Source of the DNA: Pseudogymnoascus verrucosus
Taxonomy: Eukaryota
Strand: one strand, 5' to 3'
DNA: 64,000 nucleotides
Assembly: GCA_001662655.1 (NCBI GenBank)
Contig: KV460214.1
Shown one piece after another: positions 39,220-44,911 of the stretch (within the stretch, counting starts at the first letter, position 1; each line of letters starts with the position of its first letter). Position numbers and translations under genes: made by a program. The notes beneath the pieces are model-generated. The model ran no database searches and was not told the origin of the DNA. It worked only from the letters and a program-made list of their open reading frames with translations.

Positions 39220-39707
39220 CGTTCAGTGCGTCGTTTTGGCTGTGATGCCCATATGAAAACTACCCCACCGATAGCGCAATCGGCGACAATCGCGATAACG
39301 GCTGATTCACAGACAATATGGGGAAAATCGTCCAGCGCACAAAACGTTAGTATGAAACTACGGCCCGGTTCAAATGGCAGCTAGCAAGCGAATGGTGGAT
39401 GTTGACCTTAGTATTATTGAGAAAGTGCGCATATTACAGTTATTTTGGGGGAGAAACAAGGGTAATTTTCATTGGCAAACTTAAATGGTCATGGTAAACT
39501 TTTTTTATTGGCAAGCTATGTCGGAATGATTCCACTGTCGTAGCAGCAGAATCTAGGACATGCTATATAATACGGGCTAATGATTCACAAAACAAGACGC
39601 CTGCGATCAAAACAAATTCATGGAGCAAGCGATCTTCATCCCAGTCATCCCAAGCCGTCGTAAACTTGCCAGTACCACCTATAGAATCGAAGGGGGTCCT
39701 ATTAAGT

Positions 39708-39758
39708 CTGCCATACGTTAACTCTGCGCAACATCTGTCATACCACATGCAAGCTTAC
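39708..39758 (-). other. Predicted 3'UTR intron of eRF1
   Basis: AAG|GTAAGC donor at 39758, GTTAAC branch, CAG acceptor at 39708; 51 nt. Confidence 0.7.
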
Positions 39759-39963
39759 CTTTTTCAGCCTGTTTACTGTCATCTTAAGCCAACATCATGG
39801 AGTGTAGCGGACTGGGCCGGACCACCTGGGCAACCGGGCCGTGGCCAGGATAGATGGAAACTTGACCTGCCGTCTGCTTCGTAGCAGGAGCGCGCGGCGG
39901 CAGGGCAGGCGATGACGGGGTTTCTGGTTTAGAGTCCTCGCTCACTGCGAGGGCATCAAACTG

Positions 39964-41429
39964 TCAATCTAGGGAGGCGCGTTAGTGTAGTTCGTCGAGA
40001 CTCTGAAGCAGGGTACAAACCGTCATAATAATCATCATCATCCTCATCGACTTCAGCCAGCTGCTCGAAGTTGACCTTGTAACGAAGCAGACCGCCAATG
40101 CCACCGAATCCCTTGACGAACTGGTTTCCTTCGCTGGACCTATCGGAGACGAACTCAAGCGTGGTACCGAAGTCTCTGTACTTCTCAGCAATCCACTCAA
40201 GGAAGGATATCTGCTCAACAACTTCCATTTCTTGGCCAGTCTCCTTGTCCATGAATTGATCTCTGTCGGATGCTTCCTGTTTCTTCGTAGTGTGGAGAAT
40301 GACTTTGTTTCCGTTGGAGTCTTTAAGCTCCCAGCGGTTGATTTCCAAATTCTCAAAGACAATGAGGATCTCCACAGCACCCAGCTCCAACGCCTTGAGC
40401 GTATCTTCAACACCGTAGCAGACACGGCCAGTATCCTGGCTAATCTCCTCGAAGTATTTGCCGATAAGCTTCTTCTCCTGGATGAACTTGACGTTGCTCA
40501 GCGTCTCGGCAGAAAGCTCGATAGCCTGGTTGAAACCGTTTTCACCTCCGTAGGAGACATCGACAACCTTAATGACCTTGACCTGGAGTCTTCCATCGAA
40601 CAGATCGGACTGGTTCAGGTCGTTCTTGAAATCGGCAGAACCAGCCAAGATAATACCGGCAACGTTGACCTTGTCATTGGTAATGAAGTTCTGCACTGCC
40701 AATTCTGCGACCTTGCGGACATAATTGTGACGCTTTTCCTCACGAAGACGGGCGAAACGGAGAGCGGACTGACCACCACGGCCGTGCTTCTTGGGGAGAT
40801 CGACGGAGAACTTGTGAACAACGTCTCTGGTGTTGCCACTCAGGGTACCAAACAAGGCTCCGTTACCATCCATAATAATGAATCCAAACTTCTGGTCATC
40901 CTCGAGCAACTCCGCGAGGGCTTCCGTGTGGAACTTGTTGTCGCAAAGATACAGAGAGGTGTTGATAGGCCTGAAAGGCTCGAAATCAATATTGACCTTC
41001 CTTTCCTTTCCTTCAGAAGTCAAAATTTCACCACAGTACACGACCAGTCCATTCGGCGGGACTTTGTTGTATAGCTTCAGCCTCTGCTGAGTAGACGTAA
41101 TGGCGGACAGGACGGACTGTCTGTTGACACGCGACTTGATGTTGGAGGCAGTTCCCTGGGGAGTTATTAGCATACACTCAGCCATGATAGTGGCAAGGCA
41201 GAGCATACATATTCTTCAGCCAACATCTTTGCCGCACGCGAGACTTGATCCTTTGGAGCTGTTATATTGTCAGTGATGCGATCGGCTGAATGAGAAGATC
41301 CAACGTACGGATAATCAGCGAAATCATGGAAGTTCCATTTCCTCTGGCTGCTTCAAGACGCCTGATGAGCTTCTTGACCTTCCAAATCTCAATGTTCTTC
41401 TCGGCCTCGTTCGCCGCTGGGTCGGACAT
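39964..41429 (-). CDS. SUP45: Eukaryotic peptide chain release factor 1 (eRF1)
   Basis: TASNIKS, YLCDNKF and GRGGQS motifs. Three coding-region introns; the last (40020-39969) gives ...YYDD* with the stop at 39966-39964. Confidence 0.97.
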
Positions 41430-42465: not shown

Positions 42466-44911
42466 ATGAGCCGTAACCCACCAAATCCAACGAACTGGGA
42501 CGACTACCAGTATGGCACGTCTTACAGATCTTCTGGTAGCTCGACTGGCAGAAGAAGCGTCCGCTTCGGTGCTGAGAGCGAGAGGGATGTGTCTCCCAGT
42601 GACACTGGTGATCGAACTGAGGTGGACTCTGGACTGCGAAGACGTCGGTAAGTTCCAATGAGGAGGATCGAGGAGTAGCCTCAAACCCCAAGGACTAGGC
42701 GTATTTAGGGACCTACTTATAAGGGTCCCTTAAACGTAGTCGAAGATATCCTGCAAGCTGTTCAGTTTGAAGCAGTACACAAGCCATGTCCTCGTGTGAC
42801 CTCCCCGTACAACAAGAGCATATATTAACGTTTGAACTACAGGTCGTCCATAAACATGCACTTGAATGCAATAGGCGAATTCGGAGGCGTCAACTCTATA
42901 AACAACTTCGCCAGGAGCTGGCAGCGAGCCGCGGCATTCCACGAAGCCGCACCACAACGGCCATCTTTCATCTTAGCTTCCGACTCCGAAGAGCAACGAT
43001 TCTCGCGGTCAGAAGTCGAACCTCGAAGCGATGCCCGTGCTTCCCTCCTTCAGCAGCATTTCTTGCACAGAGGTTCCGATGAAGCTATACAGGACGGCGA
43101 GAATGCTGAGAGCAGCGTCGTCTCGCCCCTGCTACAAGGACACGATGAAGCGCGCAAATCTCTGCGCGGCTCGGACTTTGGAAGCATAGGGGGCAGCCCA
43201 AGAGGAAGAGATTCTCTATTTCCGCTACCTGGAAGCTACGGGACCTCATACGGTACCATTCGCTCAATGGTGAATGAGCCCTCAATGGTGCATGCGGGCC
43301 GCCTATGGCGTCAGGAACAGGAGGCTGGCGATAAGTTGGCTGACGGAGAGAGGCCACCTCTTCTTGTCAAGGAAGTTGAGCAGGATGGCAAAATTGTTTT
43401 GGTTATTGACGGCCAGTCCACCTTGCCACAGACAGTCTTCAACTCAACGAACGTTCTCATTGGCATTGGTATCCTATCTTTACCGTTGGGAATGAAATAT
43501 GCTGGTTGGCTCTGCGGAACCATATTCCTAGCTGCGGCGGCGTTGGTTACTGCATATACAGCCAAACTTCTAGCGAAGTGCATGGATGTCGATGCAAGTC
43601 TGATCACGTTTGCTGATCTTGCATTCATTTCTGTATGTGTCCTGGATTTACCCCATCCTAAATCATCGCTAATACTCCCATAGTTTGGCCACAGAGCCCG
43701 AATCGCCACGGGGATTCTGTTCTCTGTTGAACTTCTAGCCGCCTGTGTGGCGTTAATCGTACTCTTTGCAGAGACCCTGGATCTTCTAATACCAGGAGTC
43801 GGTGTTGTGGAATGGAAGATCATATGTGGATTTTTGATGATACCCCTGAATTTTGTTCCTTTGCGTTTGCTCAGCTTTACCAGCATTTTGGGGATTTTTT
43901 CTTGCTTCTGCAGTAAGTTAGGCATTGGGGGTGTAGAGGGACAAAACATCCGTATTCTAAAACTAACGGTGTGATAGTTGTTCTCATTGTTTTCATTGAT
44001 GGATTCATTAAGCCGGAAACCCCTGGATCGCTTCGACAGCCTGCGGATACGTATATGTTCCCCAAAAATTGGTTAACTCTGCCAATCTCCTTGGGACTTC
44101 TCATCTGTATGACTATACCATTTGCTCCTTGATAGGCATTGACTGACCTTTCCAGCGCCCTTTGGAGGCCACGCAATCTTTCCCTCGTTCGTGGCAACCC
44201 ATTTACTTCATTTTGACAACAACTAATCAATCCTCAGGATCTACCGTGATATGAGGCATCCTCACCGATACGGCACAGCCCTCAAGATTACATTTTCATT
44301 CACCGTAAGTCCAAAAGAATACGTCAGATGGTCTTTGGGTGGGGAGCTGATTTAGCCTGTAGTATTTACTCGATGCCCTAACAGCAATTGCCGGCTACCT
44401 CATGTTCGGCGATGGTGTCCTCGACTCCGTAACTAACAACATAATCCGAACTAGCGGATACCCGCAGTCATTGACCGTACTTCTCTGCATCTTCATCGCC
44501 ATCATCCCGCTCACTAAACTACCTCTAAATGCCAGGCCCATAGTGGCCACCCTCGAGGCGCTCACCGGCCTCGACGCACGCACTGTCCCCGGCGATGATT
44601 CCCTAGTGGGGTGCTCCAAATTCGGCCGCGGCATCCAGAAGGTGGCGATACGAGTCGTTGTGATCATTTCTTTTGTCTTCTTAGCAGTCGTTTTCCCCGC
44701 ATTCGATAGCATCATGGCGTTTATGGGCTCCTGTTTGTGCTTTGCCATCTGCGTCATCCTGCCGCTGCTGTTCCATCTTAAAATCTTTGGGGATGAGATA
44801 CCGCGGGCAGAGAGGATCATGAATTGGGTCTTGATTGTTATCTCGACGATTCTTGCGGTTATTGGTACGATTTTTGCGTTCTTGCCCAAGTCTTGGATTG
44901 GAGCGGAGTGA
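42466..44911 (+). CDS. Vacuolar amino-acid transporter (Avt1-like, Aa_trans family)
   Basis: GGVNSINNFARSWQRAA, STLPQTVFNSTNVLIGIGILSLP, GGHAIFPSIYRDMRHP and TKLPLNARP. Several introns. Confidence 0.9.

What the first reader, a model, noticed from the sequence alone, without database searches (positions are those of the whole stretch)
39708..39968. eRF1 3' end encodes a stop-readthrough plus 3'UTR-intron NMD feedback circuit
Seen (minus strand): after the last coding intron the stop is TGA-CAG-TTT (39966-39964), a leaky UGA-C context close to CARYYA. It is followed by 59 open codons ([16 protein letters not shown]...HSMMLA) to TAA at 39786-39784. A canonical intron (39758-39708) starts 25 nt after that TAA and about 205 nt after the first stop. 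Known: a junction more than about 50 nt downstream of a stop promotes NMD, and eRF1 autoregulation by readthrough and NMD has been reported in plants and Neurospora crassa. Inference: high eRF1 gives efficient termination and mRNA decay, while low eRF1 gives readthrough that clears the junction complex and stabilises the mRNA. The ORF track does not show this.
Basis: partly seen in the sequence, partly recalled or inferred. Interest (0 to 1): 0.8.

Follow-up and report, generated by a model that had tools for sequence, protein, structure and literature searches.

The report
Self-regulating leaky stop of fungal eRF1
The gene for the protein that ends translation (eRF1) in this fungus ends in a leaky-looking stop codon, an RNA hairpin, a 59-codon open tail and a spliced intron, the self-balancing layout already reported for Neurospora and plants, but the tail also keeps a conserved short peptide next to the second stop, so the read-through product may itself do something.

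Summary
All coordinates check out. The 3'UTR intron (39758-39708) is spliced out in contigs of 3 of 4 runs laid and unspliced in the DNA-like run. In 50 non-redundant related fungal eRF1 loci the frame after UGA stays open for at least 48 codons in 50 of 50 (shuffles: 11; other frames: 4 each). This is the readthrough/NMD layout of plant eRF1-1 and Neurospora erf1; this scan reported it twice before on other genomes, hairpin included. Readthrough, NMD sensitivity and feedback were not measured. Corrections: the context is CARYY, never full CARYYA (0 of 50), and a 6-bp hairpin 11 nt after UGA is probably part of the signal. Added here: the tail carries a peptide, RPSPL(R/H)S, under protein-level selection (pN/pS 0.18 against 0.96 in the flank), 5-6 residues before the second stop in 16 of 19 loci, whereas the plant tail is reported as unconserved. 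It could be an arrest peptide or degron. In 7 of 50 relatives (not this one) the tail ends in a PTS1-like tripeptide. I could not read the Neurospora paper, so these additions may be in print.

The parts
39964..41429 (-). eRF1 coding sequence, 4 exons, 436 aa, ending YYDD
   Evidence: one match in the genome
41259..41308 (-). coding intron 1 (50 nt)
   Evidence: sequence and restored eRF1 frame; not covered by the read laying
41156..41208 (-). coding intron 2 (53 nt)
   Evidence: sequence and restored frame; not covered by the read laying
39969..40020 (-). last coding intron (52 nt); acceptor 2 nt before the stop
   Evidence: X2 and X7 contigs fit this acceptor
39958..39966 (-). first stop TGA (39966-39964) with 3' context CAG TTT
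   Evidence: TGA in 66 of 66 loci, +4 C in 64 of 66
39936..39952 (-). 6-bp hairpin CCUCGC / GCGAGG with 5-nt loop, 11 nt after the stop; likely readthrough stimulator (inferred)
39787..39963 (-). readthrough frame, 59 codons, mostly a variable Pro/Ala/Ser-rich linker
   Evidence: no Pfam family
39799..39819 (-). conserved peptide RPSPLHS (consensus RPSPLRS), 5 residues before the second stop
39784..39786 (-). second stop TAA, 25 nt before the exon junction
39708..39758 (-). 3'UTR intron, 51 nt, branch TTAAC 39721-39717
   Evidence: joint in X1, X2, X7, absent in X22
39485..39707 (-). distal 3'UTR with AATAAA at 39509-39504; approximate 3' end 39489-39485
   Evidence: contig ends of two studies; weak hint

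Best explanation
An eRF1 autoregulatory RT-NMD 3'UTR of the kind reported for Neurospora erf1, in a probable leotiomycete. Shown: the intron is spliced 205 nt after the stop and 25 nt after the second stop, and the frame between the stops is kept open across related fungi. Inferred: (1) splicing leaves an exon junction complex about 20-24 nt upstream of the junction, a few bases after the second stop; (2) termination at UGA leaves it in place and licenses NMD; (3) UGA-C plus the hairpin at the ribosome's mRNA entrance make termination leaky, more so when eRF1 is scarce; (4) a ribosome that reads through stops at TAA on top of the complex, removes it and stabilises the mRNA. The result is negative feedback on eRF1 level. 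The extended protein is a minor product whose last 12 or so residues are under selection, so it is probably more than waste.
For: Splicing in 3 of 4 runs laid, not in the DNA-like one. Frame open for at least 48 codons in 50 of 50 loci against 4 of 50 in each other frame and 11 expected from shuffles. All 37 gap runs in the extension of 15 aligned loci are multiples of 3. TGA 66 of 66, +4 C 64 of 66; none of 15 more distant eRF1 loci has the hairpin and their frames close within 31 codons in the 14 with a stop in view. With hand-placed junctions the in-frame second stop lies within 50 nt of, or beyond, the junction in 41 of 41 loci against 1 and 2 of 41 in the other frames. Hairpin at the same offset in 47 of 50, five of its six pairs kept in 48 or more of 50 and the sixth in 47. 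NMD and EJC genes present, SepSecS not found. Plant mechanism: PMC5397192.
Against: No measurement of readthrough, decay or feedback in this organism. No run is on record as RNA and all are contigs. The context is not CARYYA (0 of 50). Automatic intron calls in relatives were hardly better than reverse-strand controls (41 against 33 of 50), the junctions were placed by hand with the stops in view, and none was placed in 9 of 50, among them genomic-looking L014, L032, L042 and L064. Hairpin covariation is thin: 4 of 6 pairs never vary, one has compensatory changes; the whole region folds no better than shuffles (z -0.18). Loci are related, so counts are not independent.
Confidence: 0.85

Rival explanations
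1. Readthrough is kept mainly to make a functional extended eRF1, or a tail that acts on the ribosome: RPSPLRS(x5-6)-stop works as a nascent-chain arrest peptide at the second stop (as in AMD1) or as a C-terminal degron or phospho-site. It may be added to the NMD loop rather than replace it.
For: In a tree-defined group of 17 loci (100/99) 16 have PSPL[RH] and the 17th PSPQR. pN/pS 0.18 in the motif, 0.96 in the 7 codons upstream, 0.07 in the CDS; Ser, Leu and Arg codon families switch. Strict motif in 19 of 50 in frame, 0 of 50 in either other frame, 0.04 expected. Distance to the second stop is 5-6 aa in 16 of 19 while distance from the first stop runs from 45 to 116 aa; 10 of 11 database proteins with the motif end 5-6 aa after it. 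AMD1 precedent: PMC13025110.
Against: The motif was defined after seeing the data and the dN/dS window is anchored on it. It is absent or altered in 24 of 50 loci even by the wide pattern. A weak 5-pair helix overlaps its 3' end. Six codons have little room for indels, so a fixed distance is partly expected. In plants the extended protein was inactive and its tail unconserved. No stalling or proteomic data.
Confidence: 0.3
2. The tail is reached by alternative splicing, not readthrough: a later acceptor of the last coding intron skips UGA and joins the frame.
For: In-frame acceptors exist in the window (39945, 39924, 39867, 39861). 11 database gene models from named fungi join eRF1 to the tail this way.
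Against: X2 and X7 contigs use 39969, the first AG after the branch site. 27 of 50 loci lack the last coding intron yet keep UGA-C and the open frame; 6 genomic loci of the 17-locus group lack it and keep the motif. Other database models join out of frame (P0047, P0067), as prediction artefacts would. Contigs drop rare isoforms, so a minor form is not excluded.
Confidence: 0.07
3. UGA is recoded at RNA or tRNA level: A-to-I stop-loss editing or selenocysteine.
For: A hairpin next to UGA occurs at some Sec codons (PMC3159437); stop-loss editing is reported in related fungi (earlier scan note e1-7123261; not read at source).
Against: SepSecS not found in the genome (the assembly may be incomplete). 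The X7 contig has 3 differences in 39759-39969, none in the stop. The stop is outside the hairpin loop. Stage-specific editing cannot be seen in these contigs.
Confidence: 0.04
4. The intron only serves splicing-linked expression or constitutive NMD, and the open frame is chance.
For: A 59-codon open frame has P about 0.23 at this composition.
Against: 50 of 50 against 11 expected; frame-keeping indels; coding-type substitution pattern in the motif.
Confidence: 0.03

Closest known systems
Neurospora crassa erf1 autoregulation by readthrough and 3'UTR-intron NMD (Kurilla et al., FEBS Lett 2020, doi 10.1002/1873-3468.13918; title seen only in reference lists; text not held)
   Same: Same gene, same announced mechanism; the window groups with Leotiomycetes and Sordariomycetes proteins.
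   Different: Cannot be stated: I saw neither the Neurospora sequence nor the paper, so whether hairpin and peptide are described there is open.
Plant eRF1-1 RT-NMD 3'UTR (PMC5397192; section 13 and passages read)
   Same: [quoted passage not shown]
   Different: Plants use CAAUCA, keep a second eRF1 gene type with a plain 3'UTR, and their tail is reported as unconserved and inactive. Here one eRF1 match, UGA-CAR or UGA-CGG plus hairpin, and a conserved tail peptide.
UGA-C readthrough with a 3' stem-loop, alphavirus/tobravirus type (PMC3159437; passages read)
   Same: UGA-C (CGG in 17 of 50 loci) and a stem after a short spacer (7-12 nt there, 11 nt here).
   Different: Viral stems are 10-12 or more bp with long loops and many compensatory changes; this one is 6 bp with a 5 or 8 nt loop and nearly invariant.
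AMD1 readthrough-stall C-tail (PMC13025110; abstract and passages read)
   Same: Conserved residues close to a second in-frame stop after readthrough.
   Different: No sequence likeness tested or seen; stalling is shown for AMD1 and only guessed here.
Cryptic PTS1 by readthrough in fungal enzymes (PMC4207609; search listing only)
   Same: 7 of 50 related loci end their tail in SRL, ARL or AHL.
   Different: The window's tail ends in MLA, not a PTS1; no paper on this for eRF1 came up.

Membership tests
eRF1 RT-NMD 3'UTR (plant eRF1-1 / Neurospora erf1) | Gene encodes eRF1 | tested here: met
   Pfam eRF1_1, _2, _3 over cut-off
eRF1 RT-NMD 3'UTR (plant eRF1-1 / Neurospora erf1) | [quoted passage not shown] | tested here: met
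   205 nt; joint in X1, X2, X7, not X22
eRF1 RT-NMD 3'UTR (plant eRF1-1 / Neurospora erf1) | [quoted passage not shown] | tested here: met
   25 nt before the junction; 41 of 41 relatives with hand-placed junctions
eRF1 RT-NMD 3'UTR (plant eRF1-1 / Neurospora erf1) | Stop codon in a readthrough context | tested here: inconclusive
   UGA with +4 C conserved, CARYY in 19 of 50, full CARYYA in 0 of 50; leakiness not measured
eRF1 RT-NMD 3'UTR (plant eRF1-1 / Neurospora erf1) | NMD and EJC machinery present | tested here: met
   UPF1, UPF2, UPF3, Mago, Btz matches over cut-off; Y14 and eIF4AIII not searched
eRF1 RT-NMD 3'UTR (plant eRF1-1 / Neurospora erf1) | mRNA is a UPF1 target and readthrough rescues it depending on eRF1 level | not testable with these tools
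   needs mutants or reporters
Plant two-gene arrangement (eRF1-1-like plus eRF1-2-like) | Second eRF1 gene with a canonical 3'UTR | tested here: not met
   one match in the genome (counts are lower bounds)
3' structure-stimulated UGA-C readthrough | Conserved stem after a 7-12 nt spacer | tested here: met
   same offset in 47 of 50; 99.6% of cells paired on 39 of 50 loci, slid controls 37-56%
3' structure-stimulated UGA-C readthrough | Compensatory changes support the stem | tested here: inconclusive
   one of six pairs, 5 cells; four pairs invariant; L047 and L049 have a different 5-bp stem
3' structure-stimulated UGA-C readthrough | Stem raises readthrough in a reporter | not testable with these tools
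   needs stem-breaking and restoring mutants
AMD1-type readthrough-stall | Conserved peptide next to the second stop | tested here: met
   5-6 aa in 16 of 19 loci and 10 of 11 proteins; pN/pS 0.18
AMD1-type readthrough-stall | Ribosome pause at the second stop | not testable with these tools
   no ribosome profiling available
Selenocysteine recoding | Sec synthesis machinery | tested here: not met
   SepSecS no match; tRNA-Sec and SECIS not searched separately; no Rfam match in 39300-40200
Cryptic PTS1 by readthrough | Extension ends in a PTS1 tripeptide | tested here: not met
   window ends MLA; pattern (recalled consensus) met in 7 of 50 relatives

The most novel reading that the evidence does not exclude
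In filamentous ascomycetes the eRF1 readthrough tail is a working part of the circuit: a conserved RPSPLRS peptide held 5-6 residues from the second stop stalls or slows the terminating ribosome exactly over the exon junction complex (an AMD1-like readthrough-stall, acting on eRF1's own release step), or marks the extended eRF1 for removal, while other lineages get rid of the extended factor by a readthrough-exposed peroxisomal signal.
Probability: 0.25. Interest if true: 0.75.

Novelty: new member of a known kind. Interest (0 to 1): 0.42.

Why it matters
The core circuit sets termination fidelity for the whole cell, but it is published for Neurospora and plants, so another orthologue adds little. 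The comparative detail is more useful. It points to two discrete, mutable elements (a 17-nt hairpin and a 7-codon peptide) and suggests that the fungal tail, unlike the plant one, is selected as protein. If the peptide stalls termination or removes the extended factor, this would be a release factor whose own readthrough product acts on release, and it answers what cells do with the extended eRF1. It also explains why many public gene models of these fungi wrongly or unknowingly run eRF1 into a 480-510 aa protein.

Tried and rejected
No RNA holder listed for the region; runs X1, X2, X7 are RNA by guess only. Automatic intron prediction in relatives by weight matrix or strict rule did not separate well from reverse-strand controls and is not used as evidence. 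Loose pattern for stop plus hairpin in the own genome: 168 matches against 144 for the control, uninformative. Rfam: no match at E up to 1. Folding of the whole stop-to-junction region: z -0.18; the consensus fold of 15 loci gave only the first hairpin and a weak 5-pair helix. Search with the 59-aa tail among longer proteins: 38 candidates, none significant, although tail-bearing models turned up through the eRF1 query, so that blank meant nothing. Exact look-up of an L052 fragment found nothing. MAFFT did not gap the 8-nt-loop hairpins, so pair counts with controls used 39 of 50 loci (9 with an 8-nt loop and 2 with another stem left out); all 50 were counted in manual register. Alternative acceptor 39961 (would give YYDV-stop) and intron retention (456 aa): possible on paper; no contig supports 39961, and one low-depth X1 contig runs through the intron (DNA or pre-mRNA). 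PMC9661723 has no mention of the fungal circuit; PMC8310308 was a false hit. Kurilla 2020 and Zhang and Sachs 2015 are not held.

Full report
Observation. The minus strand carries an eRF1 gene: ATG at 41429, introns 41308-41259, 41208-41156 and 40020-39969, 436 aa ending YYDD, with the three Pfam eRF1 domains over cut-off. The stop is TGA at 39966-39964 followed by CAG TTT, then 59 open codons, TAA at 39786-39784, and a 51-nt GT-AG intron at 39758-39708 with a TTAAC branch site. The donor is 205 nt from the first stop and 25 nt from the second. The genome search returned one eRF1 match. The C-terminal part groups with proteins named from Leotiomycetes and Sordariomycetes and is nearest in identity, among named fungal hits, to Drepanopeziza (89%), so a leotiomycete is likely; the class labels for these genera are recalled.

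Splicing. Of 24 runs listed, none is on record as RNA; I laid 4 of them. A joint that skips exactly 39708-39758 stands in X1 (217 nt, no difference to the window), X2 and X7. X22 runs through both introns. In X2 and X7 the 36 letters between 40058 and 39969 match the exon end, so the acceptor is 39969 and the stop is in frame as stated. The X2 contig ends at 39489 and the X7 contig about 16 letters beyond 39501, just past AATAAA at 39509; that is a weak hint that the 3' end lies after the intron, giving a spliced 3'UTR of about 424 nt. Against X22 the two introns differ at 10 of 103 positions, the tail at 3 of 177 and the distal UTR at 2 of 207. Three of the four tail differences listed change an amino acid in the linker; none hits a stop, the hairpin or the motif.

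Is the open frame chance? Alone it could be (P about 0.23). I treated 65 as filamentous-ascomycete type by eye and 15 as more distant. With the window, 66 of 66 end in TGA and 64 of 66 have C next (the L007 stop was corrected by hand). Two short loci were dropped and the rest collapsed to 50 at 80% identity. In genomic sequence the frame stays open for at least 48 codons in 50 of 50, against 4 of 50 in each other frame and 11 expected from base shuffles; the shuffle is the fairer control, since conserved bases force early stops in the other frames. All 37 gap runs up to the motif in a 15-locus alignment are multiples of three, against 2 of 29 after the second stop. The 15 distant loci lack the hairpin and close the frame within 31 codons in the 14 where a stop is in view. 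The loci are related, so these are not independent trials.

Junction geometry in relatives. Automatic intron calls were weak (candidates in 41 of 50 against 33 of 50 on the reverse strand). I placed junctions by hand in 41 of 50, knowing the stops. All are at least 161 nt from the first stop; in 23 they lie 3-35 nt after the second stop and in 18 inside the frame. The second stop is within 50 nt of or beyond the junction in 41 of 41, against 1 and 2 of 41 in the other frames. Intron-less contigs match the predicted spliced form for L052 against L053/L050, L054 against L060/L055 and L034 against L030. In 9 loci no junction was placed; some look like cDNA, but L014, L032, L042 and L064 look genomic and may lack the intron.

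Hairpin. Eleven bases after UGA begins CCUCGC-AGUGA-GCGAGG (39952-39936). The CUC arm sits at the same offset in 47 of 50 loci. In manual register the six pairs hold in 47, 48, 48, 48, 50 and 48 of 50. The loop is 5 nt in 39 loci and 8 nt in 9, which keeps the frame; L047 and L049 have another 5-bp stem. On the 39 five-nt-loop loci 99.6% of cells pair against 37-56% for slid partners, but four pairs never vary and only one shows compensatory change. Fixed third codon positions (CUC, GAG) point to RNA-level constraint. Stems 7-12 nt after UGA-C stimulate readthrough in viruses (PMC3159437, passages), so this is probably part of the signal; that is inference. Full CARYYA occurs in 0 of 50, CARYY in 19, CGG in 17. 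No Rfam match. Two earlier notes of this scan on other genomes already report the circuit with this hairpin; I had found it before the look-up.

Peptide. Near its end the tail reads RPSPLHS (consensus RPSPLRS). In the 17-locus group defined by the eRF1 tree (support 100/99) 16 have PSPL[RH] and L010 has PSPQR. pN/pS is 0.18 over the seven codons, 0.96 over the seven before and 0.07 in the CDS; third positions differ as often as in the CDS and Ser, Leu and Arg codon families switch. The strict motif is in frame in 19 of 50 loci and in 0 of 50 in either other frame, 0.04 expected; a wider pattern chosen afterwards reaches 26 of 50. It sits 5-6 residues before the second stop in 16 of 19 while its distance from the first stop runs from 45 to 116. 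Among 120 database proteins, 19 have a tail of more than 45 residues after the LRYK anchor and 11 of these carry the motif, from Drepanopeziza, Pyricularia, Trichoderma, Purpureocillium, Xylariaceae, Grosmannia and others; 10 of the 11 end 5-6 residues after it. These are gene models that splice round the UGA. Coding-type selection past a stop is the best evidence here that the tail is translated. Alternative splicing cannot be the general route, since 27 of 50 loci, and 6 genomic loci of the 17, have no last coding intron. Caveats: the window is anchored on the motif, a weak helix overlaps its end, and 24 of 50 loci lack it.

Mechanism. Shown: layout, splicing, conservation, and presence of UPF1, UPF2, UPF3, Mago and Btz. 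From the literature: an EJC is laid 20-24 nt upstream of a junction, introns more than 50 nt after a stop induce NMD, and readthrough to a safely placed next stop rescues plant eRF1-1 mRNA (PMC5397192, section 13 and passages); 3'UTR introns trigger EJC-dependent NMD in Neurospora (as cited in PMC7746235, passage). Inferred: here the EJC would sit 1-5 nt after the second stop, under a ribosome terminating there, so readthrough clears it; scarce eRF1 raises readthrough and stabilises its own mRNA. For the peptide, its tie to the second stop puts it in the exit tunnel at termination, as for the AMD1 tail that blocks eRF1-driven release (PMC13025110, abstract and passages); a C-terminal degron or a proline-directed kinase site (consensus recalled) fits too. 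I give a working tail about 0.3.

Comparison and novelty. The circuit is announced for Neurospora in the title of Kurilla et al. 2020, seen only in reference lists; that paper, its supplements and Zhang and Sachs 2015 were not available, and they may describe the hairpin or the peptide. The plant paper states that extended regions are not conserved, have no motifs and are inactive, which differs from what is seen here. Searches for the peptide string (0 papers), for eRF1 with stem-loop in Pezizomycotina, with PTS1 and with hairpin and ribosome profiling listed no paper on these features, judged from listings only; the scan's own index has no note with the peptide. In passing, 7 of 50 tails end in SRL, ARL or AHL against 0.11 expected; four are one clade, so about four lineages.

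Verdict. Real, well conserved and most likely the known eRF1 readthrough/NMD loop (0.85): a new member of a known kind. Interest 0.42, carried by the conserved tail peptide; 0.75 if it proves to stall termination or dispose of the extended factor.

Noticed in passing
L039, L041, L051, L054, L055, L056, L060 (end of the readthrough frame, 144-150 nt after UGA): Tails of 48-50 aa end in SRL, ARL or AHL, a PTS1-like tripeptide, in 7 of 50 loci against 0.11 expected; the Arg codon varies synonymously. Readthrough eRF1 might be sent to peroxisomes in these lineages.
   Followed up: partly
L047 and L049, about +15 to +29 after UGA: UGA-CUG context with a different 5-bp stem (GGCUC/GAGCC) in place of the standard hairpin, suggesting replacement of the structure.
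   Followed up: partly
L019, L022, L028, L030, L035, L039, L045, L050 and others, about +35 to +70 after UGA: By eye, a second hairpin bounded by CAGA and UCUG and a conserved CUGACG follow the first hairpin outside the window's group; not tested.
   Followed up: no
L018, L019, L022, L027, L029, L030, L038, L045, L050, L053 and others: The predicted 3' intron lies inside the readthrough frame (18 of 41), and in several the PSPLR-like motif lies after the junction, in frame only after splicing.
   Followed up: partly
P0010, P0014, P0050, P0051, P0061, P0063, P0077, P0080, P0089, P0114, P0115: Public gene models splice round the UGA and fuse eRF1 to the tail; probably prediction artefacts drawn by the tail's coding signal, possibly real minor isoforms in some species.
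   Followed up: partly
L008, L011, L013-L017, L020 and several named Sordariomycete proteins, mid-tail: A second conserved stretch, roughly (A/F)(Q/E)RRL(M)KGF, in the Sordariomycete-type tails; protein or RNA constraint not separated.
   Followed up: no
window 39783-39790; L002-L020 second stop: Most loci of the group have CTTGAGTT around a UGA second stop; the window uses a TAA one codon earlier, so the second stop has been replaced while staying next to the junction.
   Followed up: no
window 39707-39501: The distal 3'UTR differs from the X22 relative at only 2 of 207 positions, less than the introns (10 of 103) or the CDS (11 of 480); may hold further elements.
   Followed up: no
window 39961 and 39958-39956 (minus): A CAG 8 nt after the used acceptor would give YYDV and a stop in another frame, bypassing the leaky context; intron retention reaches the same stop. 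No contig supports the shifted acceptor.
   Followed up: partly
window 39220-38112, 37937-36641 (minus), 42829-44911 (plus): Neighbours look like prephenate dehydratase, a hydratase/dehydratase-type gene and an amino-acid transporter, judged from translations by recall; no link to the finding.
   Followed up: no
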